DNA of 64,000 bases from Candidatus Levyibacteriota bacterium (GTDB lineage Bacteria; Patescibacteriota; Microgenomatia; Levybacterales; UBA12049): positions 76,104 to 140,103 of the forward strand of contig OY970292.1 of the NCBI GenBank assembly GCA_963716145.1, in the 5' to 3' direction. The position numbers were made by a program, and so were the translations under genes. Of this stretch, positions 1 through 39,031 are shown piece by piece. How positions within the stretch are numbered: the stretch's first letter is position 1; each line of letters begins with the position of its first letter. Under the pieces are notes generated by a model, which ran no database searches, had not been told where the DNA came from, and worked only from the letters and a program-made list of their open reading frames with translations.

Positions 1-446
1 TTATTGGAGTACTTCTTTTTTATAATTTTTTGTATTTTATGCATCAATACCAGATTCATGCTAAGCTCCACCAAACTTGGTATAGAAACAATGGTTTTAG
101 CTTACTGATGACAGACCTGGAAAAAACATACGACAAGTATGATCGAATCATTTTAACAAAATCAACGGGAGGGATTTATCCTCTTGTTCTTTTTTACAGC
201 AAATTTGATCCGAAAGTTTATCAGGAGTCAGGATCAACAAGGAATTATGACTATACAGGATTTGGTAAATTCTTTTTTTCCCCGAAAGATTGTCCTTCGA
301 TAAACAAAGATAGAAGATTTCCGGCTGGTAAAAAGATTTATGTTGACAAGGGAGATTGTCCTGATAATCTGAAGATTCCAGAAAAAAATCAAGTATATAT
401 CTTAAGAGAAGATGGGACAAAGGGCTTCAGAATTGTGTATGAATAA
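1..446 (+). CDS. Hypothetical protein, probably the C-terminal fragment of a gene truncated by the window start (reading frame open back to position 3)
   Basis: ORF track 30..446 begins at a TTG; the frame has no stop upstream to the window edge; C-terminal tail has no recognisable motif. Confidence 0.3.
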   Translation, partial: IGVLLFYNFLYFMHQYQIHAKLHQTWYRNNGFSLLMTDLEKTYDKYDRIILTKSTGGIYPLVLFYSKFDPKVYQESGSTRNYDYTGFGKFFFSPKDCPSINKDRRFPAGKKIYVDKGDCPDNLKIPEKNQVYILREDGTKGFRIVYE

Positions 447-481
447 TTTGGTTAAGTACTGTCTTTCTACAATTTATTCTT

Positions 482-2041
482 ATGAAAAAGTTTAAAAAAG
501 CAATTCTTAATAACCATCTGTCTATTGCATTAATTATTATATTATTAATCCCTTCAATCCTTCCGCTTTTTCATAAAGGATTTTTTGTAACAGATGATGG
601 TGAATGGGCGATTATTCGTTTTTCCGCATTCTACGCAGCTCTACGTGATGGACAATTTCCAGTCAGATTTCTTGATAGGTTAAATTTTGGCTATGGTTAT
701 CCGGTCGCAAATTTCTTATACCCCGGCTTTATGTATCTTGGAGTCATACCTTATATTTTAAAAATAGGTCTTGTTTCAACTATTAAAATAATTCTCTCTA
801 TGTCTCTGGTGGGATCTGCGCTTTTTACTTACTTTTGGCTTAAGAAATTTTTTGATAAGACATCATCCCTAGTGGGTGCCCTTTTTTATGCATATGCCCC
901 ATACCATCTGTATGATTTATATGTACGAGGCTCAATTGGGGAGATGCTTGCTCTTATGACCTTACCTTTTATTCTTTGGCAAGTGGAGAGAAAAAGTATT
1001 TTTTGGATATCAACCGGAATAATGCTGCTCATTATTTCGCATAACACTCTCGCCGTTCTATTTTTGGCCTTAATTCTTGGTTATATGACGCTTATCTCAT
1101 TTGTCGCTAAAAAGAAGAGTAATTTTTATTTTTATTTAAAAAGTTTATTTATCGGAGTTGGTTTGGCTGCATTTTTTTGGATGCCTATACTATTTGAATT
1201 AAATTACACTGTTTTTTCATCAACAAAAGTTTCAGATTGGAGTAACTACTTTGCGCCAATTGATCTAATTGGTTACATAACCTACCTAGTTTTATTTTTT
1301 ACAGCATTTTTATTTATCAGCAAAAGAGAATTAGTCAAAAAACATCGTAGGACGGTATTCTTATTTATAGTGGGGATTATTTCCATTTTTCTCTCAAGTT
1401 CAGTTAGCTATTCTTTTTGGAAAGTAATGCCTGCCGGCTTTATCCAATTTCCATTCCGCTTTCTATCAGTTAGCTTATTGTCTGCTGCCTTTCTTGCTGC
1501 ATTCGTCGTATCCCAGCTTAAAAGTGCATACAGAACAATATTTGTTTTCCTTTGTGCAATTTTATTATTCACATCTGCATATAAGAGTATTGTGACAATT
1601 AAATTTTTTGACAAAGGCGATGATTTCTATTCAACCAATGAAGCAACTACTACAGTGAAGGATGAATATATGCCGGTTTGGGTGAAAGAAAAGTCTCAGA
1701 AAAGAGCGGATGTAAAAGTGGAAAATCTAAATAGAAAAGGAAGAATTGAAAATGTTTTTTACAACAATAAAAAAGTTACCTTTACAATAGATTTGCAGGA
1801 GAACTCAGTTATTCAAGTTAATACGATTTATTGGCCAGGATGGAACGCTTTTGTTGATGAAAAATCCATTCCAATTTCATATAATAACCCAAAGGGCTTG
1901 ATGAGAATAAATGTTCCATCAGGTAAACATTTAGTCAAATTGAACTTTGGAGAAACGCCGTTGCGTTTATTTAGCGATTTAATTTCTTTGGCAAGTCTGG
2001 GTATTCTTTTAGTTATTTCTTTAAAAAGAAATCATGAATAG
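482..2041 (+). CDS. Polytopic membrane protein, putative GT-C-type glycosyltransferase (YfhO-like C-terminal WPGW...VD...G.H.V motif); tandem paralog of the next gene
   Basis: 519 aa, many predicted TM helices; N-terminal H.GFF..DD..W motif and C-terminal YWPGWNAFVDE...SGKHLVKLNF resemble the YfhO-family periplasmic end; 8-nt overlap with the next ORF. Confidence 0.5.
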   Translation: MKKFKKAILNNHLSIALIIILLIPSILPLFHKGFFVTDDGEWAIIRFSAFYAALRDGQFPVRFLDRLNFGYGYPVANFLYPGFMYLGVIPYILKIGLVSTIKIILSMSLVGSALFTYFWLKKFFDKTSSLVGALFYAYAPYHLYDLYVRGSIGEMLALMTLPFILWQVERKSIFWISTGIMLLIISHNTLAVLFLALILGYMTLISFVAKKKSNFYFYLKSLFIGVGLAAFFWMPILFELNYTVFSSTKVSDWSNYFAPIDLIGYITYLVLFFTAFLFISKRELVKKHRRTVFLFIVGIISIFLSSSVSYSFWKVMPAGFIQFPFRFLSVSLLSAAFLAAFVVSQLKSAYRTIFVFLCAILLFTSAYKSIVTIKFFDKGDDFYSTNEATTTVKDEYMPVWVKEKSQKRADVKVENLNRKGRIENVFYNNKKVTFTIDLQENSVIQVNTIYWPGWNAFVDEKSIPISYNNPKGLMRINVPSGKHLVKLNFGETPLRLFSDLISLASLGILLVISLKRNHE

Positions 2042-3779
2042 ATTTAAAAAATTTTTACCTTTAATCGTAATTTTAGTACTTTCTTTTTGGGCTTTGAAGC
2101 CCTTATTTAATCCAGGTTTTTTTCCTATCCATGACGATGAGCAGGTAGGTAGATTGTACGATATGCATATTGATGTACGCTCAGGGCATTTGCCTCCCAG
2201 GCTTTCGCAAAATCTGGGCTTCGGATATGATTACCCCCTTTTCAATTTCTATCCATCTTTTATTTACTATGTTGCCGAAATATATCATCTAATTGGCTTT
2301 TCTTATATTGTGTCGATAAAGTTAATGATCGCAAGCGGATTTATTCTTGCGGCATTTGCTATGTATGCCCTCTCAAAAGAATATTTTGGAAAGCTAGCAG
2401 GTATAGTTTCCTCACTTGCTTATACATACGCCTCTTATCACAGCATTGATGTTTATGTGCGTGGAGCATTACCCGAGTTTTGGTCATTTGTTTTTTTACC
2501 GGCAATATTCTGGAGTTTTACAAAGTTGGCTAAAAAACCCGGAGGTTTTTTTACACTACTTTCAGGAATATTTTTGGCATTCTTTGTGTTGACGCATAAT
2601 CTAATTGCCATGATGAGTGCCCCCTTTATTTTGTCGTTTCTTATTTATCTTTATTTTGTTACAAAAGATAAAAATAAATTTGTTTTAACAACAACTTTTT
2701 CAGGAATAATCGGCGTTTGCTTATCAGCGTATTTTTGGCTGCCTGCCATTCTTGAAAAAAAATTCACAATGGTGAGCGTATTAACAACTGAGTTAGCAAG
2801 TTACGCGATACATTTCGTCTTCCCGAGTCAGTTTTGGTATTCCCCATGGGGATATGGGGGATCAACCGCTGGGACAGGAGATGGTCTCTCATTTCAAATT
2901 GGTAAAATATACCTTCTTTGCTTAGTTACAGTTTTTGCATATTCTCTCCTGTTGTTAAAAAAGCAAAGAAAGACGGCAATGCTTTTGTTTTTGCTTCTTG
3001 GTCTTTTTATTCTTTCTCTTTTCATGCAAACAGCACATTCTAAGTTTATTTGGGACGGTCTGCAATCTAGTATGGCCTATATCCAGTTCCCATGGAGGTT
3101 TTTGGTGTTTAGTTTTTTTCTTGCTTCTTTTGCTCTTGGAGCACTTTTTACAACTCCGTTTCCGCTTTATAAAAATAAAAATTTTAACTATTTACAATAT
3201 GTTCTAGCAGCAATGATTGTTTTCGTCATTATTTATAAAGCTGTTGCGATTTTCAATCCGTTAACATATCTCGTCAATGCAAAAGACCAAGATTACGTAA
3301 GTCAAGATGTTATGCGTTGGAAAACAAGCAATATGGCATTTGAATATGTACCAAAAGGCATAGCGACAAAAAAATCAGCAAGAGGCAATACTATTGTTGA
3401 TATAAAACAATCACAAATAGCAAAACGACCACTATCAGTTATTTCCGGAAATATGCAAATAGATGTAACAAAAGATATTCCGCAAAAAAAATCAGCAACA
3501 GTCACTGTTAAAAAAGGTGGAATATTGCAGATCAATGTTTATGCGTTTCCAGGATGGCAAGTATTAGTAGACAATGAAGAAGTGACATATTCTGCCAATA
3601 ATTCTTTGAGATTACTGAGAATTCCTTTAAATGAGGGGAAGCATGTAATTGTTGCTAAATTTAATGACACGTCTGTGAGAATTTTAGGGAATTTGCTTTC
3701 TGCCATAACAGCGTTAGGAATTTTGTTCTTCGGGACTTACTATGTAGTTTTACCAAGAATGAAGGAAATAAAGAAATAG
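2034..3779 (+). CDS. Polytopic membrane protein, putative GT-C-type glycosyltransferase (paralog of 482..2041)
   Basis: 581 aa; shares GFGYDYP / YVRG / C-terminal FPGWQVLVD...GKHVIVAKF motifs with the preceding gene. Confidence 0.5.
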   Translation: MNRFKKFLPLIVILVLSFWALKPLFNPGFFPIHDDEQVGRLYDMHIDVRSGHLPPRLSQNLGFGYDYPLFNFYPSFIYYVAEIYHLIGFSYIVSIKLMIASGFILAAFAMYALSKEYFGKLAGIVSSLAYTYASYHSIDVYVRGALPEFWSFVFLPAIFWSFTKLAKKPGGFFTLLSGIFLAFFVLTHNLIAMMSAPFILSFLIYLYFVTKDKNKFVLTTTFSGIIGVCLSAYFWLPAILEKKFTMVSVLTTELASYAIHFVFPSQFWYSPWGYGGSTAGTGDGLSFQIGKIYLLCLVTVFAYSLLLLKKQRKTAMLLFLLLGLFILSLFMQTAHSKFIWDGLQSSMAYIQFPWRFLVFSFFLASFALGALFTTPFPLYKNKNFNYLQYVLAAMIVFVIIYKAVAIFNPLTYLVNAKDQDYVSQDVMRWKTSNMAFEYVPKGIATKKSARGNTIVDIKQSQIAKRPLSVISGNMQIDVTKDIPQKKSATVTVKKGGILQINVYAFPGWQVLVDNEEVTYSANNSLRLLRIPLNEGKHVIVAKFNDTSVRILGNLLSAITALGILFFGTYYVVLPRMKEIKK

Positions 3780-3799: not shown

Positions 3800-5266
3800 A
3801 TGTTTAAGAATATAGCTTTTAAAAAGTTAATACAAAGTGAATTGGCGTTTTTCACTTCATTGTATGGGTTGGTTCTAGTTATTTTTTTTGGTGCATTTCA
3901 TATAAATTTTTTTGCTGATGATTATTTTTTTCTTAAAATAAGCAGAGCGAATAATATTTTCGATTTTATTAATTTCTATTCACCTATCAGAGATTATTCG
4001 TATAAGCCTTTAGCTAGTGAAACTTTTTATTATATATTGCATTTATTAAATAATAACGTCTTCTTAGGTCATGCGATTATGTTTGTGACTTATTTTGTTG
4101 GCATTTTTTATCTATACAAAGTAATAAATACTTTGACAAATAATAAAAATTTAGCAAAGCTGACAGTTTTTATGTACGGAATTAGCTTTGTTCATGTATT
4201 TCAACTCTATTGGTTCGGAACATACCAGGAGATTGCCCTTTTTTGTTTTTTAACAATATCTTTATACCATTTTATTAGAAAAAAATATTTTTTAAGTGTC
4301 TTATTTTTTGTTTTTGCTTCTTTATGCAAGGAAACGGCAGCTCTTTATACGCCTTTCTTATTTTTATTCGTGTTCTGTAGAGACAAAGGGAAATTAAAAA
4401 TTAGTAATTATTATCACTTGATAATTTTCGTTTTTCTAACAGTCATATTTTGGCTAGTTTATAAAACAAGCTTAGATCATATAACAAGCCTGGATAATTA
4501 TAAGGTAAGTTGGAATTTAAAACTTCTTATAAATAATTCTATGTGGTATGGTCTTTGGGGAATTGGATTTCCAAATTTCATGTCAGACTATTTTAATAGC
4601 ATTTTCTCAAAACCGTCCCCAGTCTTTTGGGATATCATAAAAAGTCACGATATAAAAATGTACTTTGAGCAATTAATAATATATTTACTTCTATTTATGA
4701 GTTCTTTAACGGGATATATAATTTTCAATAAAAAAGAACATAAAAGATATATTTATTTATTAGCTTTTTCTCTTTTTGGTTTTTTACTATTTCTAGGCCC
4801 AATACTTCTTTTTCCGCACAAATGGATGATCAGGTTAACTATGCCCTTAATTTTTGTTAGCCTTTTTCAGGCCTACTTTATTTTTGATTTAACTCGTAAA
4901 AATTTGCTAACCAAAGCAATAGCAGCAATTCTTATTGCCATGTACTTCAGTTGGAACTTTTATGGTATAAAGACGCATGAATCATCCAGCTTATATCTTT
5001 TGGAAAATAATATTTATGTTAGTGCAGGCAAATACTTCTCAATGCACAAAAATCAAATAACAAACAAAAAATATATTTATTTCAAAGATGATGGTAGAAA
5101 TAAAAATAATATTTTTAATAATTCTCAAAAGCTTAAGCTGAGTTTTCATGATCAGAGTTTTCTTGATCATTTTTTTCCCGGTTATAAGATGACGGCTGTT
5201 TATAATTTTGAATCACCTAAAATACCGGCAAATGCATTCATTGTTGACACTAACTTGCTTTTTTAA
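3800..5266 (+). CDS. Polytopic integral membrane protein, possible GT-C glycosyltransferase
   Basis: 488 aa hydrophobic, >10 predicted TM segments; FFADDYFF acidic motif in first loop; sits directly upstream of a DPM-synthase-like GT2. Confidence 0.4.
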   Translation: MFKNIAFKKLIQSELAFFTSLYGLVLVIFFGAFHINFFADDYFFLKISRANNIFDFINFYSPIRDYSYKPLASETFYYILHLLNNNVFLGHAIMFVTYFVGIFYLYKVINTLTNNKNLAKLTVFMYGISFVHVFQLYWFGTYQEIALFCFLTISLYHFIRKKYFLSVLFFVFASLCKETAALYTPFLFLFVFCRDKGKLKISNYYHLIIFVFLTVIFWLVYKTSLDHITSLDNYKVSWNLKLLINNSMWYGLWGIGFPNFMSDYFNSIFSKPSPVFWDIIKSHDIKMYFEQLIIYLLLFMSSLTGYIIFNKKEHKRYIYLLAFSLFGFLLFLGPILLFPHKWMIRLTMPLIFVSLFQAYFIFDLTRKNLLTKAIAAILIAMYFSWNFYGIKTHESSSLYLLENNIYVSAGKYFSMHKNQITNKKYIYFKDDGRNKNNIFNNSQKLKLSFHDQSFLDHFFPGYKMTAVYNFESPKIPANAFIVDTNLLF

Positions 5267-5291: not shown

Positions 5292-6020
5292 ATGCATTCT
5301 ATGAATAGTAAAATTTCCGAACTTTCAATATTTTTTCCTTTTTGGAACGAACAGGACAATATAGAGAAAACAGTAAGAGACGCCATACCCATTGCTAAAA
5401 AAATTGCCAGAAAATGGGAAATTATTATGGTGGACGATGGATCATCAGACAAAACTCTTGAAATCGCAGAAAGACTGGCAAAAGAGGATGAACGACTGCG
5501 TATTATCTCTCATCAGCCAAATAGAGGGTATGGCGCAGCACTGACTGCCGGATTAACTAATGCCCGGTACAAGTTAATTGTTTTTACTGATGGTGATGGA
5601 CAATTTGATTTTTCAGAAGTAATAAAACTCTTGGATAAAATTGATTCAGCTGATATGGTAATTGGTTATCGGCAGAAAAGAAGAGATCGCAAATTATTCA
5701 AACGATTACTTTTGATGAATCTTCTTAAGGTAGGGGATTTACTTCTCTTTAGATTTTATTTTCGAGATATTGATTGTGGATTCAAGATGTTCAAGAAAGA
5801 AGCAATAGAAAAGTTAACACCACTTCGTTCTGAAGGTGCGATGATCACAACGGAAATTCTCGCAAAAGCCAGAAAGAAGAAATTAAAGATTAAAGAGGTA
5901 GGTGTTACACATTATCCCCGAAAACTCGGTCACCAAACCGGAGCAGAATTTTCAGTTATTGTCCGAGCAGTTCTTGAAAGCTTAATCCTGTGGTACGATT
6001 TACATTATGGAAGAACTTGA
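5292..6020 (+). CDS. GT2 family polyprenol-phosphate glycosyltransferase (dolichol-P-mannose/glucose synthase-like)
   Basis: MVDDGSSDKT...NRGYGAA...FTDGDGQFD motifs typical of DPM1/GtrB-like GT2. Confidence 0.7.
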   Translation: MHSMNSKISELSIFFPFWNEQDNIEKTVRDAIPIAKKIARKWEIIMVDDGSSDKTLEIAERLAKEDERLRIISHQPNRGYGAALTAGLTNARYKLIVFTDGDGQFDFSEVIKLLDKIDSADMVIGYRQKRRDRKLFKRLLLMNLLKVGDLLLFRFYFRDIDCGFKMFKKEAIEKLTPLRSEGAMITTEILAKARKKKLKIKEVGVTHYPRKLGHQTGAEFSVIVRAVLESLILWYDLHYGRT

Positions 6021-19502: not shown

Positions 19503-19503
19503 C

Positions 19504-28432: not shown

Positions 28433-28433
28433 T

Positions 28434-33680: not shown

Positions 33681-33715
33681 AATTTCAAATTTCAAATTTC
33701 AAATTTCAAATTCTC
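33681..33715. repeat. Tandem heptanucleotide array (AATTTCA)x4 plus variant aattctc, in frame in the same GT4
   Basis: units 33681-33687, 33688-33694, 33695-33701, 33702-33708, 33709-33715 (variant); encodes ISNFKFQISNSQ. Confidence 0.9.
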
Positions 33716-34140
33716 AATTAAAATTGTGGATTGTTGGGAGAGAGATTCCGGACTCTATAAAAAACTTAACAAATGATCAAGATATCATTTTTGATGAAGA
33801 AGGATCAGCTAGGCCAACGGAAGAATTATTCCAGGAGGCTGATATTCTTTTTGGCTCCGATCAGAATAGGCGGAGGGACTAGTTATAAAATACTTGAGAG
33901 CATGAGCAGTGGTACGCCCGTCGTAACTACAGAACTTAGCGCAAGTGTAATTGATGCAAAGGATAGCATAAATATTATGGTAGGCAAAAATGCTCAAGAG
34001 CTATCTGAAAAAACATTAAAGCTTCTTTCTGATAAAAGACTTTATCAAGCAGTGGCAAAAAATGGGCGGAGCTTGATTGAAGAAAAATACACATGGAGAA
34101 AAATCGCCAATGAGCTGGATAAAGTTTATAAAAGTCTGAT

Positions 34141-35058
34141 ATGAACAAAGTTGATTTATCAATTGTTATCCTAAATTACAACACCAAGCAGTTGACACTT
34201 GATGCTATTTCATCAATTGAAAAGAACTATCCGGATGAAGTTAAATCTGAGAAATACGAAGTGATAGTTGCGGATAATGCTTCACCGGATGACTCGCATA
34301 AAGCGTTCGAAGAGTATAAAAAGAAAAGTAAAATTAAATCTTTTCACGTCGTTGATAACGGTGGGAATATTGGGTTCTCCAAAGGCAATAATAACGGCTT
34401 AAAATATTCTCAGGGACGGTATGTTTTATTTCTGAATCCCGACACGGTAGTTTATCCCAAAACATTGGACAAAATGGTTGAGTTTATGGATACACATCTT
34501 GGCGCCGGAGCTGCAACCTGCAAAGTCGAGATCCCTGCGGGTGGAATTGATGATGCATCTCATCGGGGATTCCCAACTCCCTGGAACGCCTTAACTCACT
34601 TTTCAGGTTTTGAAAAGTTATTTCCAAAAAGTCGAATATTCGCAGGATATACTCAAGGATTTAAAGATATGAATAGCGTGCATGAGGTTGATGCCATATC
34701 GGGAGCTTTCTTATTTGTTCGGCGGGAAGTTGGGGAGCAGATCGGCTGGTGGGATGAAGAATACTTTTTTTATGGAGAAGATATCCAGTTTTGTTACAAC
34801 ATTAAAAAAGCAGGATATAAAATCTATTATGTGCCAGATGTCAGCATTCTTCACTACGGAGGCGTGTCAAGCGGTATTAAAAAGCAATCCCACCACATAA
34901 CCACAGCAGATAAAGAGCACCGAAAAATTATGCAGAGTCATCGTTTTGCCGCGATGCGGATTTTTTACAAAAAAAATTATCAGAAAAGATACCCCAAGTT
35001 TGTTAGTTGGATTGTAAACAAAGGAATTGACAGCCTACATAAAAAGCATTCGTCTTAG
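34141..35058 (+). CDS. GT2 family glycosyltransferase
   Basis: LSIVILNYNTKQLT...VADNASPDDS. Confidence 0.7.
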   Translation: MNKVDLSIVILNYNTKQLTLDAISSIEKNYPDEVKSEKYEVIVADNASPDDSHKAFEEYKKKSKIKSFHVVDNGGNIGFSKGNNNGLKYSQGRYVLFLNPDTVVYPKTLDKMVEFMDTHLGAGAATCKVEIPAGGIDDASHRGFPTPWNALTHFSGFEKLFPKSRIFAGYTQGFKDMNSVHEVDAISGAFLFVRREVGEQIGWWDEEYFFYGEDIQFCYNIKKAGYKIYYVPDVSILHYGGVSSGIKKQSHHITTADKEHRKIMQSHRFAAMRIFYKKNYQKRYPKFVSWIVNKGIDSLHKKHSS

Positions 35059-35079: not shown

Positions 35080-36195
35080 ATGAAAATTGGCATTGATGCA
35101 AGGCTTTGGAGCGAAACTGGAGTTGGGAGATATATCCGCAATTTGGTAAAGGAACTTCAAGTATTGGACAAGAAGAATGAGTATGTTTTGTTTGTCAGAA
35201 AGGCAGATTACGATAAGGTTAAATTTCAAATTTCAAATGATAAATTCCATATCAGAATTGCGGATATCCGTTGGCACACAATTGACGAGCAGCTGAAGCT
35301 TCCTCATATACTAGATAAAGAAAATGTGGACTTGGTTCATTTTCCTTATTTTTCTGTTCCTGTGGGTTACAAAAAGCCTTTCGTTATGACAATTCATGAT
35401 TTGATTCTTAATCATTTCCCGACAGGTAAAGCCTCCAAGCTCCCTCTGTATTTATATCAATTAAAGCGTCTTGGCTATGATTATGTAGTAAAAAAAGCAG
35501 TGAAGAGAGCGCAAAAAATTATCGTTCCCCTCAATGCTGTCAGAGATGATTTGGTAGCAACACTTGGAGTCAAAGAAGAAAAAGTTGCTGTAACGTATGA
35601 AGGCTTTGATGAAAAAATAATCAGTAAAGATAAGTCATCGATTGATGATACTAAATATTTTTTGTATGTTGGGAACGCATATCCACACAAGAATATCGAA
35701 AGACTAATAAAAGCCTTTTCCCTTTTTAGAAAAGAACAAAATGCAGAAGTACATTTGCTGTTGGTTGGCAAGGACGACTATTTTTATAAAAAACTTTCAG
35801 AAAAAATAAGGAAAGAAAATTATTCTGGAATTTTGATAAGGAACAATGTAAAAGATTATGAGCTTGCAAATTATTATAATAACGCTATAGCGCTCATTTC
35901 CCCCTCTCTTATGGAAGGATTTGGACTTCCGGTGCTTGAAGCAATGGCATCATCATGTGCCGTACTTGCGTCAGATATTCCCTCACTCAGAGAAGTGTGC
36001 GAAGGTGCGGCGTTATACTTTAATCCGCATTCTATTACAGAGATAAAAGATAAAATGAATCTTATTTTTAATACTGACAAAGAAACTCTAGAAAAATTAA
36101 TAAATAAAGGATTAGATCGTTCTCAGCAATTTTCCTGGAAAAAAATGGCAGAACAAACACTGAAAGTTTATGAAAGTTGCTTTAGTTTACGATAG
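35080..36195 (+). CDS. GT4 family glycosyltransferase; carries short AAATTTC x2 array
   Basis: MKIGIDARLW N-term and SPSLMEGFGLPVLEAMASSCAVLASDIPSLREV C-term. Confidence 0.7.
   Translation: MKIGIDARLWSETGVGRYIRNLVKELQVLDKKNEYVLFVRKADYDKVKFQISNDKFHIRIADIRWHTIDEQLKLPHILDKENVDLVHFPYFSVPVGYKKPFVMTIHDLILNHFPTGKASKLPLYLYQLKRLGYDYVVKKAVKRAQKIIVPLNAVRDDLVATLGVKEEKVAVTYEGFDEKIISKDKSSIDDTKYFLYVGNAYPHKNIERLIKAFSLFRKEQNAEVHLLLVGKDDYFYKKLSEKIRKENYSGILIRNNVKDYELANYYNNAIALISPSLMEGFGLPVLEAMASSCAVLASDIPSLREVCEGAALYFNPHSITEIKDKMNLIFNTDKETLEKLINKGLDRSQQFSWKKMAEQTLKVYESCFSLR
35221..35238. repeat. Short tandem array (AAATTTC)x2 plus partial, in frame in GT4 35080..36195
   Basis: units 35221-35227, 35228-35234, then aaatgat; encodes KFQISND. 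Confidence 0.8.
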
Positions 36196-37258
36196 GATCA
36201 ATAAATGGGGCGGTGCTGAGAGGCTTCTCCTTGCGCTTCATGAATTATTCCCTGAAGCGTCTCTTTATACATCCGTTTATGATAAGGAAAAAGCTCTTTG
36301 GGCAGAAGTTTTTGATATTAGAACTTCTTTTCTGCAAAACATTCCATTTGCCTCAACAAATCATGAACTTCTTGCAGCGTTTATGCCTTTGGCATTTGAA
36401 AGTTTTACTTTTGACGAGTATGATTTGGTGATCTCACTAACTAGTGAGGCAGCAAAAGGAATTATCACAAAACCCGGTACAATACATATTTGTTATTGCC
36501 TAACCCCTACCCGGTATTTGTGGAGCGGTTATGACGAATACTTCAAGAGTGATAGTCTCAAAATTATGTCAAAACCTATTGTTTCAGGTCTTCGCAGGTG
36601 GGATATAGCAGCGAGCAGACGGCCAGATGCCTTTATCGCGATATCCAAGGAAGTTCAAAAAAGAATTAAAAAATATTATGGAAGAGAATCTGATTTGGTT
36701 TATCCGCCAGTGACATTGAGCGCAAGAGCGCAAGAGCGCAAGAGCGCAACGAAGGAAGGAGAATATTTTCTAGTTGTGTCACGTTTGTCAAAGTTTACGG
36801 GATATAAGAGAGTTGACTTGGTTATTGAAGCTGTCAATGAACTTAAAATTCCTTTGAAAATTATTGGGGATGGAAGCTTGAGAAAAGAACTGGAACAAAT
36901 GGCAGGACCGACAATCGAATTTATAGGAAATGTTAATGATGATGAATTGGGTGGATATTACAAAAACTGCAAAGCATTGATCTTTCCGGGGAAAGAGGAC
37001 TTGGGGTTGGTAATGATTGAGGCACAAATGTTTGGAAAACCGGTTATTGCTTACAAGGAAGGTGGAGCTGTAGAATTGGTGATTGAGGCCAAGACGGGAA
37101 TATTTTTCCAGCAGCAAACAAAAAAATCATTAATTGAAGCGCTACAGAAATTTGAAAAAACCAAATTTGATTCAAAAGCCTGCAGAAAAAATGCAGAAAA
37201 ATTTAGCATGGATAAATTTAAGCAAAATTTCTTGTCGGTTGTGAATAAATTGATTTGA
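36170..37258 (+). CDS. GT4 family glycosyltransferase; carries GAGCGCAA x4 array
   Basis: MKVALVYDRINKWGGAERLL N-term, FPGKEDLGLVMIEAQMFGKPVIAYKEGG C-term; 26-nt overlap with upstream gene. Confidence 0.65.
   Translation: MKVALVYDRINKWGGAERLLLALHELFPEASLYTSVYDKEKALWAEVFDIRTSFLQNIPFASTNHELLAAFMPLAFESFTFDEYDLVISLTSEAAKGIITKPGTIHICYCLTPTRYLWSGYDEYFKSDSLKIMSKPIVSGLRRWDIAASRRPDAFIAISKEVQKRIKKYYGRESDLVYPPVTLSARAQERKSATKEGEYFLVVSRLSKFTGYKRVDLVIEAVNELKIPLKIIGDGSLRKELEQMAGPTIEFIGNVNDDELGGYYKNCKALIFPGKEDLGLVMIEAQMFGKPVIAYKEGGAVELVIEAKTGIFFQQQTKKSLIEALQKFEKTKFDSKACRKNAEKFSMDKFKQNFLSVVNKLI
36718..36749. repeat. Perfect tandem octanucleotide array (GAGCGCAA)x4, in frame in GT4 36170..37258
   Basis: units 36718-36725, 36726-36733, 36734-36741, 36742-36749; encodes SARAQERKSAT. 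Confidence 0.9.
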
Positions 37259-37276
37259 TATTATAATGAAGATTGT

Positions 37277-38359
37277 ATGAAAATTGTAGTTTTTGCCGGA
37301 GGAGTCGGTACAAGGCTCTGGCCGCTTTCAAGAAAAAATACTCCCAAGCAGTTTGGAAAAATTATAGGGAATGAGTCTACGCTACAACAAACCGTAAGCC
37401 GGTTAACTGTTGAATTTAAATCAGAAGATATTTATATAGCAACAGGCAAGCAGTATAAGGATGTAGTTATGAAGCAGCTTCCCAATATCCCAAAGGAAAA
37501 TTTTATTTTTGAACCAATGATGCGGGACGTTGGGCCTGCGATTGGCTTGTCGTCCTTTATTCTTGAGAAGAAATTCCCAAATGAACCCATCGCAATTCTT
37601 TGGAGTGACCATATGGTCAAAAACGAAGAAGCGTTCAGGCATGTCCTGCGTCTTGCCGAGAAGAAGATTGTTTCCAAAGAAACTGAATTTGTCTTTATAG
37701 GACAAAAACCCCGTTTTCCCAATCAAAACTGCGGCTGGATCCAGCTCGGTGAAGAAAGTGAAAGCAGTAATGGTGCAAGTGTTTATGAATTTAAAAGACT
37801 TTGTTATCGGCCAAAGCCAGAGGAGGCTGATAAATTTTTTAATGACAAGAACTATGTTTGGAATTTGGGATATTTTGTGACTACACCCAAATATCTTACA
37901 ACACTTTTCAAAAAGTATACTCCTGATATGTCAAAGCTTCTATCAGAAGTTCAAAATGATTACGGATCAGACAAATATGAAAAAACACTTGAAGATATTT
38001 ATCCAAAACTTGAAAAAATCAGTTTTGATGATGCTATTCTGGTCAAACTTTCTCCAAACAACCTTAAAGTTATTGCGACCGATCTTGGCTGGAGCGATGT
38101 GGGGGCATGGGACGCATTGAAGGAGGCCCTGGAAACACATAAAGAGGAAAATGTAACCCGGGGAAATATAGAATTGGAAGATACAAAGGACGTTTTAATG
38201 TTCAATTATGAAGAAAAGCTATGTATCGGTATTGATTTGTCGGAAATGGTTGTAATTAATACAGAGGATGTTTTGCTAGTGTGTCCCAAAGGTTCAATTC
38301 CTAAAATAAAAAAGTTCGTTGAAAATTTAACCGGAACTGACCACGAGCATTTAATATAA
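37277..38359 (+). CDS. Mannose-1-phosphate guanylyltransferase (GDP-mannose pyrophosphorylase)
   Basis: MKIVVFAGGVGTRLWPLSRKNTPKQF nucleotidyl-transferase signature. Confidence 0.6.
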   Translation: MKIVVFAGGVGTRLWPLSRKNTPKQFGKIIGNESTLQQTVSRLTVEFKSEDIYIATGKQYKDVVMKQLPNIPKENFIFEPMMRDVGPAIGLSSFILEKKFPNEPIAILWSDHMVKNEEAFRHVLRLAEKKIVSKETEFVFIGQKPRFPNQNCGWIQLGEESESSNGASVYEFKRLCYRPKPEEADKFFNDKNYVWNLGYFVTTPKYLTTLFKKYTPDMSKLLSEVQNDYGSDKYEKTLEDIYPKLEKISFDDAILVKLSPNNLKVIATDLGWSDVGAWDALKEALETHKEENVTRGNIELEDTKDVLMFNYEEKLCIGIDLSEMVVINTEDVLLVCPKGSIPKIKKFVENLTGTDHEHLI

Positions 38360-38362
38360 ATA

Positions 38363-39031
38363 ATGCCAAACAAAGAGACACAAAAAAATACATGGTACGA
38401 TTTTGCCAAACGAGTATTGGATATTTTTTTTTCTGCAATTATTCTTATGTTCTTCTCCCCAATTATTGTGATTGTTGCCATATTAATTAAAATAGAAACA
38501 CCTGGCCCCATTCTTGCTGATACTCCTGAGAGGGTAGGAAAAGATGGTGAATTGTTTTATCCCTATAAATTCAGATCAATGATTGTTAACGCCTACCAGC
38601 TTTTAAAGACAGACCCTAAGCTCAGGAAGGCCTATGAGGAGCAGCAAAAAGGGGGAAACTATAAAATAAAAAATGATCCAAGGATTACAAAAGTCGGTAA
38701 ATTTATAAGAAAGCATTCGCTTGATGAAATTCCTCAGCTCTTAAATGTGCTTAAGGGTGAAATGAGCCTGGTTGGTCCTCGTCCATACTATCCTGAGGAG
38801 CTTGAGAAGCAGCAGCAAAGATATCCCCAAACCAAGAATTCGGTTAAAGAGGTGTTGTCGGTAAAACCGGGGATTACGGGCCGTTGGCAGGTGTCGGGCA
38901 GAAGCGAAGTGAATTTTGACAAGAGAATCCAAATGGATGCAACTTATGCAAAGCGGCGTTCTGTTTTTTATGATCTCTTGATTATAGCTAAGACCCCATG
39001 GGCGATGATTTCAGGCCGCGGTGCCCTCTAA
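38363..39031 (+). CDS. Initiating sugar phosphotransferase (undecaprenyl-phosphate glycosyl-1-phosphate transferase, small Bac_transf type)
   Basis: KRVLDIFFS...YKFRSM...DEIPQLLNVLKGEMSLVGPRP motifs of the bacterial sugar transferase family. Confidence 0.7.
   Translation: MPNKETQKNTWYDFAKRVLDIFFSAIILMFFSPIIVIVAILIKIETPGPILADTPERVGKDGELFYPYKFRSMIVNAYQLLKTDPKLRKAYEEQQKGGNYKIKNDPRITKVGKFIRKHSLDEIPQLLNVLKGEMSLVGPRPYYPEELEKQQQRYPQTKNSVKEVLSVKPGITGRWQVSGRSEVNFDKRIQMDATYAKRRSVFYDLLIIAKTPWAMISGRGAL

What the first reader, a model, noticed from the sequence alone, without database searches (positions are those of the whole stretch)
1..39031. Exceptionally large co-directional glycosylation supercluster (~39 kb, ~30 genes)
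The cluster contains about 12 large polytopic GT-C-like membrane proteins, 8 GT2, about 6 GT4, a Wzx-like flippase, an LbH acetyltransferase, ManC and an initiating phosphoglycosyl transferase. All are on one strand and many have 4-nt ATGA start/stop overlaps indicating translational coupling. For a small low-GC genome this is a very large investment in extracytoplasmic glycan assembly (surface protein or S-layer glycosylation, or a lipoglycan). The number of GT-C paralogs suggests a branched or heterogeneous glycan built outside the membrane from lipid-linked donors.
Basis: partly seen in the sequence, partly recalled or inferred. Interest (0 to 1): 0.6.

Follow-up and report, generated by a model that had tools for sequence, protein, structure and literature searches.

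The report
Giant envelope-glycan gene cluster, CPR bacterium
A tiny (about 1.1 Mb) uncultured Patescibacteria genome devotes about 53 kb, nearly 5% of its DNA, to one same-strand run of about 40 sugar-chain-building genes, made of a widely conserved 13-gene core plus a fast-changing array of membrane enzymes that add sugars outside the cell membrane.

Summary
All family calls hold: 8 GT2, 6 GT4 plus a stand-alone GT4 N-half, Wzx, LbH acetyltransferase, ManC-like enzyme, Bac_transf priming enzyme and 10 exact ATGA overlaps. All 12 large membrane proteins are GT-C-like. Seven pass Pfam thresholds; one passes through its Wzy_C domain; the rest rest on paralogy, profile-profile comparison or predicted structure.

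The run continues 11.7 kb upstream of the window with four more GT-C genes. It ends downstream at a DUF4012 gene. Total: 52.8 kb, about 40 genes, 16 GT-C-fold domains from at least 9 old families, on a 1.14 Mb contig of a Levybacteria-like organism.

It is composite:
- **Core (25255-41132):** 13 genes whose order is kept in seven relatives down to 39% identity. At its centre is a 1019-aa fusion of a WaaL/Wzy-like domain to a GT-C domain.
- **Array (upstream):** GT-C, GT2 and Wzx genes that are gained and lost between close relatives.

Likely mechanism: a glycan is built on a lipid carrier inside the cell, then extended and decorated outside by GT-C enzymes using polyprenyl-phosphate sugars. 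The product and acceptor are unknown. I rate it a new variant of a known kind, of moderate interest.

The parts
1..446 (+). C-terminal 148 codons of a 555-aa PMT-like GT-C gene that starts upstream of the window (L001 8298-9965)
   Evidence: the L001 ORF is 99% identical to the window 30-446 ORF. It is a paralog of 17817 (30%) and 19486 (27%). It has a sub-threshold PMT_2 hit and a DE motif after TM1.
482..2041 (+). GT-C-fold membrane glycosyltransferase, PTPS_related family (519 aa)
   Evidence: Pfam PF10131, 40.1 bits against a cut-off of 26.4. About 13 TM segments. DD motif after TM1.
2034..3779 (+). GT-C-like membrane protein, paralog of 482 (581 aa)
   Evidence: blastp to 482: 28% identity over 578 aa, E 6e-53. 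No Pfam hit of its own. HDDE motif after TM1.
3800..5266 (+). GT-C-like membrane protein of the 'DD...FYRP' family; the stand-alone form of the GT-C domain fused in 28434 (488 aa)
   Evidence: No Pfam hit. 508 representative homologs. Invariant D40 D41, Y68 R69 P70, H340. hhalign to the C-half of 28434: 99.8% probability, E 1.7e-29, 425 columns. 6 of 37 family members hit PMT_2.
5292..6020 (+). Small soluble GT2, polyprenyl-phosphate sugar synthase-like (242 aa)
   Evidence: Pfam GT2, 103 bits. Best solved relatives are ArnC (E 4e-18, residues 8-214), Dol-P-Man synthase and GtrB. NCBIfam similarity to PgfS, AglJ, ArnC and PpgS is all below the curated cut-offs.
6007..7461 (+). Wzx-type flippase (484 aa)
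   Evidence: Polysacc_synt_3, 147 bits; Polysacc_synt, 49 bits. About 13-15 TM segments. Only 40% identical to the ortholog in L014, while neighbouring genes are 63-77% identical.
7474..8373 (+). GT2 glycosyltransferase (299 aa)
   Evidence: Pfam GT2, 63 bits. Paralog of 34141, 27554 and 14617.
8382..10358 (+). Uncharacterised GT-C-fold membrane protein with an OST/DPY19-like predicted fold (658 aa)
   Evidence: No Pfam, NCBIfam or PDB sequence hit. 69 homologs, none with a Pfam domain; the few that carry a name are CPR. AF2 model pLDDT 89.5, pTM 0.92. Foldseek to STT3/AglB/PglB/DPY19: E 5e-8 to 3e-5, TM 0.37-0.48. No WWDYG motif in 32 of 32 members; D141 is nearly invariant.
10419..11168 (+). 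GT2 glycosyltransferase (249 aa); first gene of the sub-module shared with L008
   Evidence: Pfam GT2, 67 bits. 46% identical ortholog in the same position in L008. Preceded by a 60-nt gap.
11235..12305 (+). GT4 glycosyltransferase (356 aa)
   Evidence: Glycos_transf_1, 65 bits. 52% identical ortholog in L008.
12302..14620 (+). YfhO-family GT-C glycosyltransferase (772 aa)
   Evidence: PF09586, 55.4 bits against a cut-off of 28.5. 47% identical ortholog in L008.
14617..15570 (+). GT2 glycosyltransferase (317 aa)
   Evidence: Pfam GT2, 87 bits. Orthologs in L008 (49%) and L012 (74%).
15567..16292 (+). Small soluble GT2, polyprenyl-phosphate sugar synthase-like (241 aa)
   Evidence: Pfam GT2, 117 bits. 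Best solved relative is Dol-P-Man synthase 5MLZ (E 6e-18, residues 1-237), then ArnC and GtrB. AglJ 113 bits, below cut-off. 57% identical ortholog in L008; absent from L012.
16302..17798 (+). PMT_2-family GT-C (498 aa)
   Evidence: PF13231, 34.1 bits against a cut-off of 26.1.
17817..19502 (+). PMT/PMT_2-family GT-C (561 aa)
   Evidence: PF02366, 27.7 bits against 22.7. WDE motif after TM1. 33% identical paralog of 19486.
19486..21141 (+). PMT/PMT_2-family GT-C (551 aa; TTG start as listed, start uncertain)
   Evidence: PF13231, 39.7 bits; PF02366, 35.8 bits.
21147..22013 (+). GT2 glycosyltransferase (288 aa)
   Evidence: Pfam GT2, 65.5 bits. Paralog of 10419.
22010..23569 (+). GT-C-like membrane protein, distant paralog of 16302 (519 aa)
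   Evidence: blastp to 16302: E 6e-11 over 490 aa. No Pfam hit of its own. D..RD motif after TM1.
23566..25188 (+). GT-C-like membrane protein, last gene of the variable array (540 aa)
   Evidence: Sub-threshold PMT_2, E 0.011, profile positions 4-160 of 160. blastp to 16302, E 4e-4. 42% identical homolog in L008.
25255..25800 (+). Stand-alone GT4 N-terminal (acceptor-side) half-domain protein (181 aa); first gene of the conserved core
   Evidence: Glyco_transf_4, 29.5 bits, with no C-terminal domain. It is a separate 177-188-aa ORF at 52-82% identity in all seven relatives. Preceded by a 66-nt gap.
25797..26945 (+). GT4 glycosyltransferase (382 aa), core
   Evidence: Glycos_transf_1, 141 bits. 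Conserved in all relatives.
26942..27535 (+). Left-handed beta-helix O-acetyltransferase, WcaF-like (197 aa), core
   Evidence: Hexapep, 50 bits. NCBIfam WcaF family, 106 bits, below cut-off.
27554..28432 (+). GT2 glycosyltransferase (292 aa), core
   Evidence: Pfam GT2, 72 bits. Present in six of the seven relatives; no ortholog found in L003.
28434..31493 (+). 1019-aa fusion: N-terminal Wzy/WaaL-superfamily domain (about 1-500) and C-terminal GT-C glycosyltransferase domain (about 505-1019)
   Evidence: Wzy_C, 35.3 bits against 31.7. TIGR04370 repeat-unit polymerase, 32 bits, below cut-off. The best 120 homologs are all about 1000-1130 aa. AF2 pLDDT 80, pTM 0.79. Foldseek: WaaL 7TPG, E 2e-4, TMt 0.64; also STT3, AftA, DPY19 and Pmt4. 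The C-half matches the PMT family by hhalign at 92.8%. Invariant D546 D547 after a TM segment.
31490..32938 (+). PMT/PMT_2-family GT-C (482 aa), core
   Evidence: PF02366, 38.6 bits; PF13231, 35.9 bits. Follows the fusion gene in all seven relatives.
32935..34144 (+). GT4 glycosyltransferase split into 315-aa and 123-aa ORFs by one extra T in a T5 run near 33846-33850
   Evidence: tblastn with the intact 413-aa L002 ortholog: residues 1-313 in frame +1 and 314-409 in frame +2, 62-63% identity on both sides. Sequence shown. The gene is intact (393-413 aa) in the relatives.
34141..35058 (+). GT2 glycosyltransferase (305 aa), core
   Evidence: Pfam GT2, 81.5 bits. 34% identical paralog of 27554.
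35080..36195 (+). GT4 glycosyltransferase (371 aa), core
   Evidence: Glycos_transf_1, 102 bits.
36170..37258 (+). GT4 glycosyltransferase (362 aa), core
   Evidence: Glycos_transf_1, 95.5 bits.
37277..38359 (+). Mannose-1-phosphate guanylyltransferase-like enzyme (ManC N-part, no PMI cupin; 360 aa), core
   Evidence: NTP_transferase, 88 bits. TIGR01479 GMP_PMI, 222 bits over positions 3-348 of 467, below cut-off.
38363..39031 (+). Small monotopic phosphoglycosyl transferase (priming enzyme; 222 aa), core
   Evidence: Bac_transf, 208 bits. Matches only the C-terminal catalytic part of WbaP/EPS_sugtrans models. The sequence shows an N-terminal hydrophobic helix with Ser-Pro, and LDEIPQ and PRP motifs.
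39108..41132 (+). DUF4012 protein, single N-terminal TM segment (674 aa); last and best-conserved core gene
   Evidence: PF13196, 77 bits. 84% identical in L002, against 42-75% for its neighbours. Follows the PGT in the six relatives whose fetched DNA reaches that far. DUF4012 also sits next to the priming GT in the B. longum EPS locus (PMC5412050) and is a CPR- and Gram-positive-enriched family (PMC6744442).

Best explanation
This is a composite envelope-glycan biosynthesis locus of a Levybacteria-like (Microgenomates, Patescibacteria) bacterium.

**Core pathway (25255-41132, inferred steps)**
1. The small Bac_transf enzyme primes a polyprenyl phosphate with a hexose-1-phosphate.
2. Four to five GT4 and two GT2 enzymes, with a stand-alone GT4 half-domain as a probable accessory subunit, extend the glycan on the cytoplasmic face.
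3. A ManC-like enzyme supplies GDP-mannose, and an LbH enzyme O-acetylates.
4. After flipping, the WaaL/Wzy-like domain of the 1019-aa fusion polymerises or ligates the diphosphate-linked unit.
5. The fused GT-C domain, the adjacent PMT-like GT-C and the DUF4012 protein complete or attach the product.

**Variable array (upstream, inferred)**
- It holds 14 further GT-C-fold enzymes.
- Three small GT2s make polyprenyl-P-monosaccharide donors.
- The Wzx next to the first of these GT2s probably flips the donors (a GacI/K/L-type arrangement), and possibly the repeat unit as well.
- Each GT-C then adds or extends sugars on the outer face, giving a strain-variable, branched surface glycan.

**Shown:** family and fold assignments, gene order, conservation pattern and boundaries.
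**Inferred:** substrates, order of steps, the acceptor, and whether all modules act on one product.
For: **Families:**

**Donor synthases:** the best solved relatives of 5292 and 15567 are ArnC, Dol-P-Man synthase and GtrB, aligned over nearly the full length.

**GT-C status of the Pfam-negative proteins:**. Acidic motifs sit directly after TM1 in 15 of the 16. In 8382 the conserved acidic residue is D141, after the fourth helix.

**Fusion protein**
- The N-half resembles WaaL and the C-half resembles STT3, AftA, DPY19 and Pmt4.
- D546 D547 are invariant.
- Hydropathy plus the model places both the 290-419 loop and the DD loop on the same side of the membrane (this is inference).

**Core synteny:** kept in L002-L005, L010, L012 and L013 at 39-76% identity of the central protein.

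**Array variability and mosaicism**
- L012 lacks 15567, 16302, 21147, 22010 and 23566.
- L014 lacks the 555-aa GT-C, and its Wzx is only 40% identical.
- L008, an unnamed relative whose 8382 homolog is only 37% identical, shares the block 10419-11235-YfhO-14617-15567 plus PMT genes.

**Module borders:** the largest intergenic gaps (60-76 nt) fall at 10358/10419, 11168/11235, 25188/25255 and 39031/39108. Three of the four are module borders; 11168/11235 lies inside the shared block.

**Literature precedent:** GT-A + flippase (GtrA- or Wzx-type) + GT-C systems, and loci with conserved and variable parts (PMC8035078, PMC10821137).
Against: - No glycan, acceptor or transcript data exist.
- No GtrA-type flippase, GacJ/WpsB-type activator, Wzz/PCP, ABC exporter or LCP ligase is present in the 64-kb window or the 17 kb upstream.
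- The conserved core has no flippase of its own within 10 kb in any of the seven relatives.
- The small GT2s and ManC score below NCBIfam equivalog cut-offs.
- Polymerase and ligase roles of the Wzy_C domain cannot be told apart.
- The modules have different conservation patterns, so they may serve different products.
- Two genes are frameshifted: the GT4 at 32935-34144 and an upstream PMT_2.
- Promoter and terminator scans were no better than shuffled sequence, so the operon structure is unproven.
Confidence: 0.6

Rival explanations
1. The core is a general protein O-glycosylation system for pilins or S-layer and surface proteins. In this reading the Wzy_C domain of the fusion acts as a PglL/TfpO-type O-oligosaccharyltransferase. 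The PMT-like GT-Cs O-glycosylate secreted proteins directly from polyprenyl-P-sugars, as in actinobacterial Pmt or the streptococcal Pgf system.
For: - Wzy_C is the family of PglL-type O-OTases as well as of ligases and polymerases (Pfam hit; established knowledge).
- Nine of the GT-Cs hit PMT/PMT_2 models, five above threshold and four only weakly.
- The 8382 family has an OST/DPY19-like predicted fold.
- Streptococci use a GT2 (PgfS) plus GT-C enzymes for protein O-glycosylation (PMC12041528, listed). 5292 is most similar to PgfS among NCBIfam models, though far below cut-off.
Against: - No candidate acceptor protein is encoded in or beside the locus.
- PMT_2 is also the family of many polysaccharide-modifying GT-Cs such as GacL, GtlB and CsdD.
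- 8382 lacks the WWDYG motif.
- The association with DUF4012 and a PGT mirrors an EPS locus.
- The data do not discriminate further.
Confidence: 0.25
2. The 'supercluster' is several independent glycosylation systems that are merely adjacent. Examples would be a conserved polymer pathway, plus separate GT2/GT-C pairs that decorate different targets such as lipoglycan, wall polymer and proteins. They would be kept together by co-orientation upstream of the dcw cluster, not by a shared product.
For: - The modules have different phyletic patterns. The core is conserved at 39% identity while its upstream neighbours are replaced.
- The block 10419-15567 recurs in L008, where none of the core genes lies within the 22 kb fetched.
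- An 8382 homolog stands alone in L006.
- The largest intergenic gaps fall at or near the module borders.
- A LigT-like gene and a GH53-like gene interrupt the upstream part.
- B. subtilis and Lactococcus carry several independent GT-A/GT-C pairs with different targets.
Against: - In the three closest relatives (L002, L012, L014) the modules stay contiguous and in the same order.
- Overlapping or near-abutting genes run through most of the locus.
- Only three donor-synthase-like GT2s and one Wzx serve 16 GT-C domains, which argues for shared donors and flipping.
Confidence: 0.3
3. The locus is an artefact: a chimeric or mis-assembled contig, or a decaying, non-functional gene array.
For: - Two frameshifted genes.
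- GC is lower than in the flanks.
- The MAG origin of the sequence.
Against: - An independent assembly is identical over the 6017 shared bases.
- The junctions are reproduced in relatives.
- All other ORFs are intact, with conserved catalytic motifs.
- The frameshifted genes keep 62-79% identity on both sides of the shift, so each is a recent lesion or a homopolymer sequencing error.
Confidence: 0.03

Closest known systems
Rhamnose-rich cell-wall polysaccharide loci of streptococci and lactococci (gac/rgp, cwps), with multi-component transmembrane glycosylation
   Same: - One long co-directional locus with a conserved part and a strain-variable part.
- Cytoplasmic GT-A enzymes make C55-P-sugars.
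- A Wzx-type flippase (GacK) or a GtrA-type flippase is used.
- PMT_2-type GT-C enzymes add sugars outside the membrane.
- The variable part governs interactions with phages and hosts (PMC8035078, PMC10821137).
   Different: - No rmlABCD genes, ABC exporter, GacJ/WpsB activator or LCP ligase are present here.
- There are 16 GT-C domains instead of 1-3.
- The priming enzyme is a Bac_transf PGT, not a TagO/GacO-type enzyme.
- The central enzyme is a Wzy_C-GT-C fusion.
Mycobacterial/corynebacterial LM/LAM and arabinogalactan assembly by GT-C enzymes (MptA/B/C, PimE, Emb, Aft) using decaprenyl-P-sugars
   Same: - Many GT-C enzymes build most of a wall glycan outside the membrane from polyprenyl-P-monosaccharides (established knowledge).
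- One upstream gene hits the MptA_B family.
- The small soluble GT2s resemble Ppm1/DPM1-type synthases.
   Different: - The genes here are in one locus rather than scattered.
- No Emb/Aft-type hits above threshold and no DPA pathway.
- The organism has a 1.1 Mb genome.
- A Wzx/Wzy-type component and a PGT are present.
Wzx/Wzy-dependent O-antigen, CPS and EPS loci; specifically the Bifidobacterium longum 105-A EPS locus (priming GT, DUF4012, Wzz)
   Same: PGT, GT4/GT2 set, acetyltransferase, Wzx, a Wzy_C-family protein, and DUF4012 adjacent to the priming transferase.
   Different: - No Wzz or tyrosine kinase.
- Wzy_C is fused to a GT-C domain.
- The Wzx lies 19 kb away in the variable part.
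- There are far more GT-C genes.
Oligosaccharyltransferases STT3/AglB/PglB, and DPY19 C-mannosyltransferase (GT-C fold with a C-terminal globular domain)
   Same: - The predicted fold of 8382 matches these best (Foldseek E 5e-8 to 3e-5).
- Its C-terminal globular domain resembles AglB-S2 (TMt 0.58).
   Different: - No WWDYG motif in any of 32 family members.
- TM scores are only 0.37-0.48.
- No sequence-level similarity.
- It is therefore not an OST family member.
CsbB/YfhO, GtlA/GtlB and Gtr three-component systems
   Same: A GT2 sits immediately beside a YfhO or PMT_2 GT-C (12302-14617-15567), and the donor synthase-like GT2s are present.
   Different: - The GT2s lack the C-terminal TM helices of CsbB/GtrB.
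- There is no GtrA/GtcA flippase.
- The units are concatenated many times over.

Membership tests
GT-C superfamily (12 large membrane proteins in the window, 4 upstream) | Significant match to a GT-C family profile, or demonstrable homology or fold similarity to one | tested here: met
   - Above the Pfam cut-off: 482, 12302, 16302, 17817, 19486, 31490. On the precomputed record: DUF2079 and MptA_B upstream.
- By paralogy: 2034 and 22010, and the upstream 555-aa gene. 23566 is weaker (blastp E 4e-4; PMT_2 E 0.011).
- By profile-profile comparison: 3800 and the C-half of 28434.
- By predicted structure: 8382.
- The upstream split PMT_2 is sub-threshold, but its intact ortholog hits PMT_2.
GT-C superfamily | Polytopic topology with a conserved acidic residue or motif in the first extracytoplasmic loop after TM1 | tested here: met
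   - 7-23 hydropathy segments.
- DE, DD or D..RD motifs follow TM1 in 15 of the 16.
- They are invariant in the two families that were aligned (D40 D41, D546 D547).
- In 8382 the conserved D141 follows the fourth helix.
- Sidedness is inferred, not measured.
Wzx/Wzy-dependent polysaccharide pathway | Initiating polyprenyl-phosphate phosphoglycosyl transferase | tested here: met
   Bac_transf, 208 bits against a cut-off of 27. NCBIfam EPS_sugtrans 260 bits and WbaP 251 bits are below their full-length cut-offs, because only the catalytic domain is present.
Wzx/Wzy-dependent polysaccharide pathway | Wzx flippase | tested here: met
   Polysacc_synt_3, 147 bits, at 6007-7461. However, it lies in the variable array. 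No flippase is seen within 10 kb of the core in the seven relatives.
Wzx/Wzy-dependent polysaccharide pathway | Wzy polymerase | tested here: inconclusive
   - Wzy_C, 35.3 bits against 31.7.
- Repeat-unit polymerase TIGR04370, 32 bits against a cut-off of 40.
- The fold is nearest to WaaL ligase.
- Polymerase, ligase and O-OTase roles cannot be separated.
Wzx/Wzy-dependent polysaccharide pathway | Chain-length regulator (Wzz/PCP) and attachment enzyme (WaaL or LCP) | tested here: not met
   None found among the window ORFs scanned or in the 17 kb upstream. DUF4012 is the only candidate auxiliary protein, and its function is unknown.
Three-component / multi-component transmembrane glycosylation (GT-A, flippase, GT-C) | Polyprenyl-phosphate sugar synthase of GT-A fold | tested here: inconclusive
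   5292 and 15567 align over nearly their full length to ArnC, Dol-P-Man synthase and GtrB (E 4e-18 to 2e-10), but fall below every NCBIfam equivalog cut-off. They also lack TM helices. Activity has not been tested.
Three-component / multi-component transmembrane glycosylation | Small GtrA-type flippase, or a Wzx-type substitute | tested here: inconclusive
   There is no GtrA-like ORF. The 126-aa 4-TM ORF upstream is the N-terminal piece of a split PMT_2. A Wzx overlaps the 3' end of GT2 5292, as in GacI/GacK.
Oligosaccharyltransferase STT3/AglB/PglB (for 8382) | WWDYG motif in the C-terminal domain | tested here: not met
   0 of 32 family members carry WWD[YWF][GN] or WWD.
Oligosaccharyltransferase STT3/AglB/PglB (for 8382) | GT-C fold with a C-terminal globular domain | tested here: met
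   Foldseek E 5e-8 to 3e-5 to STT3, AglB and PglB. C-terminal domain against 3VU0, TMt 0.58. Model pLDDT 89.5.
O-antigen ligase WaaL / PglL O-oligosaccharyltransferase (for the N-half of 28434) | Wzy_C domain and WaaL-like fold | tested here: met
   Pfam above cut-off. Foldseek to 7TPG: E 2e-4, TMt 0.64.
O-antigen ligase WaaL / PglL O-oligosaccharyltransferase | Catalytic histidine and arginines of the periplasmic loops | not testable with these tools
   - No alignable solved sequence was found.
- Invariant R245, R288, R384 and D414 exist in the family.
- The only invariant His of the N-half is H198.
- From memory, ligases have H-x-H-N where this family has D-N-N. That is a lead, not a test.
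Monotopic small PGT (PglC-type) | Single N-terminal re-entrant helix with a Ser/Pro break, and a DE dyad with a PRP motif | tested here: met
   The sequence shows FFSPIIV in the only hydrophobic segment, LDEIPQ and GPRP. The protein is 222 aa and matches only the C-terminal catalytic part of WbaP models. The motif definitions come from established knowledge.
GDP-mannose pyrophosphorylase (ManC) | Nucleotidyltransferase domain plus ManC beta-helix; equivalog-level score | tested here: inconclusive
   NTP_transferase, 88 bits. ManC_GMP_beta-helix, 26.0 bits against a cut-off of 27. TIGR01479, 222 bits against 373, because the PMI cupin is missing.

The most novel reading that the evidence does not exclude
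The 13-gene core makes a lineage-wide, probably indispensable envelope glycopolymer of Microgenomates-type Patescibacteria. It would be a functional stand-in for teichoic acids or lipoglycans. The core is built around a 1020-aa Wzy/WaaL-GT-C fusion whose 120 best homologs are all full length, and it is always paired with a PMT-like GT-C, and with a DUF4012 protein in every relative whose sequence reaches that far.

The upstream array would be a second, independently evolved example, after the mycobacterial LAM/arabinogalactan machinery, of a wall polysaccharide built largely outside the membrane by many GT-C enzymes. It includes at least two GT-C families without a Pfam model, one with an OST-like fold. 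Rapid gain and loss of array genes would set strain-specific surfaces that govern attachment to hosts and phage recognition in these episymbionts.
Probability: 0.25. Interest if true: 0.7.

Novelty: new variant of a known kind. Interest (0 to 1): 0.45.

Why it matters
Patescibacteria (CPR) are ultra-small, mostly uncultured and thought to live attached to other cells, yet the chemistry of their surface is essentially unknown.

- **Scale of investment:** one locus takes 4.6% of a 1.14 Mb genome and carries 16 GT-C-fold domains. That is roughly the number I recall for the whole 4.4 Mb M. tuberculosis genome. It suggests that an elaborate, extracytoplasmically built glycan is central to their biology.
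- **Experimental targets:** splitting the locus into a deeply conserved 13-gene core and a fast-changing array gives concrete targets. These are the Wzy/WaaL-GT-C fusion, DUF4012, the OST-like orphan GT-C family and the three donor synthases. They could be pursued by heterologous reconstitution, lectin or antibody probes, and comparative genomics of host or phage specificity.
- **Annotation:** the work assigns two Pfam-negative membrane protein families to the GT-C fold.

Tried and rejected
1. **A GtrA-type flippase upstream.** The 126-aa, 4-TM ORF (L001 6770-7150) looked like one. It is rejected. It and the next 364-aa ORF are the two pieces of one PMT_2 GT-C, which is intact (504 aa) in L014.
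2. **8382 as a bacterial N-oligosaccharyltransferase.** The fold is similar, but the WWDYG motif is absent in 32 of 32 members, so it is not filed as an OST.
3. **Recent paralog expansion.** Rejected: the best within-cluster identities are 22-34%.
4. **Chimeric assembly.** Rejected.
5. **Sequence searches of PDB** with 28434, its profile, its loop region, 8382 and DUF4012 gave nothing usable.
7. **Promoter and terminator scans** gave fewer or equal hits than shuffled sequence, so there is no operon information.
8. **RNA genes.** No tRNA or Rfam family in the window.
9. **Literature.** Five searches for GT-C, glycosylation or O-antigen-ligase systems in CPR/Patescibacteria found no description of such loci. 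The Lipocone paper mentions Patescibacteria only in other contexts.
10. **Organism name.** An exact cluster look-up gave none. Taxonomy is inferred from the names attached to homologs.

Full report
**1. Observation**

From position 1 to 39031 every ORF of 100 aa or more that tiles the sequence is on the + strand.

- Eight GT2: 5292, 7474, 10419, 14617, 15567, 21147, 27554, 34141.
- GT4 genes at 11235, 25797, 35080 and 36170. A fifth (32935+33773) is split in two. There is also a 181-aa protein made only of the GT4 N-terminal domain (25255).
- A Wzx flippase (6007; Polysacc_synt_3, 147 bits).
- A hexapeptide-repeat acetyltransferase (26942).
- A ManC-like nucleotidyltransferase (37277).
- A Bac_transf phosphoglycosyl transferase (38363; 208 bits).
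- Twelve proteins of 482-1019 aa with 7-23 hydropathy-predicted membrane segments.
- Ten junctions that are exact ATGA overlaps.

**2. Are the large membrane proteins really GT-C?**

Seven pass Pfam gathering thresholds for GT-C families: 482 (PTPS_related), 12302 (YfhO), and 16302, 17817, 19486 and 31490 (PMT/PMT_2). 28434 passes only through a Wzy_C domain. NCBIfam added nothing. The rest were resolved as follows.

- **2034:** a 28%-identical full-length paralog of 482 (E 6e-53).
- **22010 and 23566:** distant paralogs of 16302 (E 6e-11 and 4e-4). 23566 also has a sub-threshold full-length PMT_2 match.
- **3800:** an exhaustive HMMER search found 508 representative homologs. Their alignment has invariant D40 D41, Y68 R69 P70 and H340. 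It matches the C-terminal half of 28434 by hhalign at 99.8% probability (E 1.7e-29, 425 columns) and the 17817 PMT family at 93.6%. Six of 37 members hit PMT_2.
- **8382:** it has no hit in Pfam, NCBIfam or PDB sequences. Its 69 homologs have no Pfam domain, and the few that carry a name are CPR. An AlphaFold2 model from 32 sequences is confident (pLDDT 89.5, pTM 0.92). Foldseek places it with STT3/AglB/PglB oligosaccharyltransferases and the DPY19 C-mannosyltransferase (E 5e-8 to 3e-5, TM 0.37-0.48). Its C-terminal globular domain resembles that of AglB-S2. None of the 32 members has the WWDYG motif. It is therefore a GT-C-fold protein of an undescribed family, not an OST.

All sixteen proteins carry an acidic motif (DE, DD or D..RD). 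In fifteen it follows directly after the first membrane helix. In 8382 the conserved D141 follows the fourth helix.

**3. The 1019-aa protein is a fusion**

- Its 120 best homologs are all about 1000-1130 aa and cover 86-100% of the query (nearly all 96% or more). Those that carry a name are mostly Patescibacteria or Levybacteria 'O-antigen ligase family' proteins.
- A 30-sequence alignment shows invariant residues throughout, including D546 D547 just after a membrane helix, and F584 F585 Y586 R587 P588.
- The AlphaFold2 model (pLDDT 80, pTM 0.79) matches WaaL O-antigen ligase 7TPG with its N-half (E 2e-4, TMt 0.64). The rest matches STT3, AftA, DPY19 and Pmt4.
- hhalign links the C-half to the PMT family (92.8%) and to the stand-alone 3800 family.
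- Hydropathy plus the model places both the 290-419 loop (a beta-rich insert and the conserved GSGYSS...D414 stretch) and the DD loop on the same, presumably outer, face. This placement is inference.

**4. True extent**

- An exact-match look-up found an independent Logan assembly (ERR11593400) identical to the window over the 6017 shared bases. It extends upstream.
- Upstream of window position 1, on the same strand, lie: a Glyco_transf_20 protein (745 aa), a GT4, a LigT-like protein, a DUF2079 GT-C, a 376-aa soluble protein with a weak GH53 hit, a 237-aa GT2 related to 5292 and 15567, an MptA_B-family GT-C, a PMT_2 GT-C split by a frameshift (126+364 aa), and the 555-aa GT-C whose C-terminus is window ORF 30-446.
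- Further upstream are a histidine kinase and, on the other strand, ion exchangers. That is the boundary.
- Downstream, the DUF4012 gene (39108-41132) belongs to the locus. It follows the PGT in the six relatives whose fetched DNA reaches that far, and it is the best-conserved protein of the region (84% in L002). DUF4012 also sits next to the priming transferase in the B. longum EPS locus (PMC5412050) and is noted as a CPR- and Gram-positive-enriched family (PMC6744442).
- After it come recO, an aminoacyl-tRNA synthetase and a complete dcw cluster: mraZ, mraW, PBP, mur ligases, murA, mraY, ftsW, murG, ftsA, ftsZ.
- From the GT20 start to the DUF4012 stop the run is 52,800 bp with about 40 genes. 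It lies on a contig of 1,142,061 bp, so it occupies 4.6% of that contig.

**5. Organism**

No name could be retrieved for the source. Homologs that carry names are overwhelmingly Candidatus Levybacteria, Daviesbacteria, Curtissbacteria or 'Patescibacteria group'. These belong to the Microgenomates group. Three related MAGs are labelled Limnocylindrales or Gammaproteobacteria yet carry the same locus at 41-70% identity and 33-36% GC. I regard those labels as doubtful.

**6. Architecture from comparison with relatives**

*Module C, the core (25255-41132).* It comprises: GT4 half-domain, GT4, LbH, GT2, the fusion, a PMT-like GT-C, GT4, GT2, GT4, GT4, ManC, PGT and DUF4012. This order is kept in seven other loci (L002-L005, L010, L012, L013). 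Identity of the central protein ranges from 76% down to 39%. The only disturbances are an IS element in L012, three small 23S_rRNA_IVP/bAvd-like genes in L013, and two GT2 positions without a recognisable ortholog in L003.

*Upstream of 25255.* The content differs.
- The close relatives L002, L012 and L014 (70-76%) keep the same general order but gain or lose single genes. L012 lacks 15567, 16302, 21147, 22010 and 23566. L014 lacks the 555-aa GT-C and has the PMT_2 intact.
- Some genes are far more diverged than their neighbours. The Wzx is 40% identical against 63-77% for its neighbours. ManC is 55% against 67-82% for the other core genes.
- The more distant relatives L003-L005, L010 and L013 have entirely different upstream genes.
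- L008, an unnamed relative whose 8382 homolog is only 37% identical, shares the block 10419-11235-YfhO-14617-15567 (46-57%). That block is followed there by an 8382 homolog and four PMT-like genes.
- An 8382 homolog also occurs alone in L006.

*Other signals.* The largest intergenic gaps (60-76 nt) fall at 10358/10419, 11168/11235, 25188/25255 and 39031/39108; three of these four are module borders. GC is lowest in window 1-10358 (0.327) and rises towards the core (0.371) and the flanks (0.38-0.39). Within-cluster paralogs are old, at 22-34% identity. They fall into at least nine sequence families:
1. DUF2079
2. MptA_B
3. the DE-type PMT group
4. PTPS_related
5. the DD-FYRP group
6. the 8382 family
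7. YfhO
8. the 16302 group
9. the 31490 type

**7. Mechanism (inferred)**

*Core.*
- The PGT is a 222-aa catalytic-domain-only enzyme with the hallmarks of monotopic PGTs. It should prime a polyprenyl phosphate.
- GT4 and GT2 enzymes would extend the glycan in the cytoplasm. ManC would supply GDP-mannose. The WcaF-like LbH enzyme would O-acetylate.
- After flipping, the WaaL/Wzy-like domain would polymerise or ligate the diphosphate-linked unit. The fused GT-C domain and the adjacent PMT-like GT-C would act on the same product outside the membrane.

*Array.*
- 5292 and 15567 align almost end to end with solved polyprenyl-phosphate glycosyltransferases: ArnC, Pyrococcus Dol-P-Man synthase and GtrB (E 4e-18 to 2e-10). 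They lack the membrane helices of those enzymes. The upstream 237-aa GT2 is related to both by blastp only.
- The order 5292 (GT2), Wzx, GT2, 8382 (GT-C) resembles GacI/GacK/GacL, where a Wzx-type protein flips C55-P-GlcNAc (PMC8035078).
- The order YfhO, GT2, 15567 resembles CsbB/YfhO pairs.
- The combination of a conserved part and a variable part parallels the lactococcal rhamnan and pellicle, where the variable part determines phage recognition (PMC10821137).

*What is missing.* There is no GtrA-type flippase, no GacJ/WpsB-type activator, no Wzz/PCP, no ABC exporter and no LCP ligase. The acceptor is unknown.

**8. Lesions**

- The GT4 at 32935-34144 is interrupted by one extra T in a T5 run near 33846-33850. 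Both halves remain 62-63% identical to the intact 413-aa ortholog.
- The upstream PMT_2 is shifted near L001 7095-7108, with 71-79% identity to the intact 504-aa ortholog on both sides.
- Both are either very recent mutations or homopolymer errors.

**9. Comparison with what is known, and novelty**

Every enzyme class is known, and the logic matches two established schemes: Wzx/Wzy pathways and multi-component GT-A/flippase/GT-C glycosylation. What differs is the following.
- The concentration of 16 GT-C domains from nine or more families in one locus of a 1.1 Mb genome.
- The conserved Wzy/WaaL-GT-C fusion at the centre of a 13-gene syntenic core.
- The constant pairing with DUF4012.
- A conserved stand-alone GT4 half-domain.
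- Two Pfam-negative GT-C families.

Five literature searches found no description of such loci in CPR bacteria. I therefore rate it a new variant of a known kind.

The finding is solid, and it is useful for CPR cell-surface biology. It is descriptive, however, and the product is unknown, so I give it an interest of 0.45.

Noticed in passing
window 47301-48356 (- strand): A 350-aa protein with three tandem OmpR/PhoB-type winged-helix DNA-binding domains (Trans_reg_C x3, 164 bits) and no receiver domain. It sits on the opposite strand between the PBP and mur ligase genes of the dcw cluster.
   Followed up: no
window 25255-25800: A stand-alone GT4 N-terminal half-domain protein (181 aa). It is conserved as a separate 177-188-aa ORF directly upstream of a full GT4 in all seven related loci (52-82% identity). 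It may be an accessory or acceptor-binding subunit; its function is unexplained.
   Followed up: partly
window 33846-33850: A T5 homopolymer carries one extra T that splits an otherwise well-conserved GT4. This is either a sequencing error or a very recent frameshift.
   Followed up: yes
L001 6770-8301 (upstream of the window; frameshift near 7095-7108): A PMT_2 GT-C gene is split into 126-aa and 364-aa ORFs. It is intact (504 aa) in the close relative L014.
   Followed up: yes
L011 5198-7435 and 8595-9203 (upstream of the window): A 745-aa Glyco_transf_20 (trehalose-phosphate-synthase-like) protein with a weak dCache_1 hit lies next to a histidine kinase. A LigT-type 2',5' RNA ligase-like gene is embedded between a GT4 and the first GT-C. 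Whether either belongs to the glycan pathway is unclear.
   Followed up: no
L012 20765-22475: In the closest relative, an IS element (DUF4096 plus DDE_Tnp_1) and two small ORFs are inserted between the PGT and the DUF4012 gene.
   Followed up: no
L013 6946-7323, 14768-15139, 17449-17817: Three small 23S_rRNA_IVP / bAvd-like four-helix-bundle genes are interspersed in the otherwise conserved core module of a distant relative.
   Followed up: no
L002, L004, L005 (record titles): MAGs labelled Candidatus Limnocylindrales or 'uncultured Gammaproteobacteria' carry the same Patescibacteria-type locus at 41-70% identity and 33-36% GC. The taxonomic labels are probably wrong, or the bins are contaminated.
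   Followed up: partly
window 6007-7461 vs L014 7621-9072; window 37277-38359 vs L012 19017-20099: The Wzx (40% identical) and ManC (55%) are much more diverged from their orthologs than the flanking genes (63-82%). This suggests allele replacement within an otherwise collinear locus.
   Followed up: partly
window 48766-54195: The dcw cluster here includes murA, a YfiH/Cu-oxidase_4 gene and a 250-aa nucleotidyltransferase between the mur ligases and mraY.
   Followed up: no
window 43146-43646: A 166-aa ORF between the aminoacyl-tRNA synthetase and mraZ has no Pfam hit.
   Followed up: no
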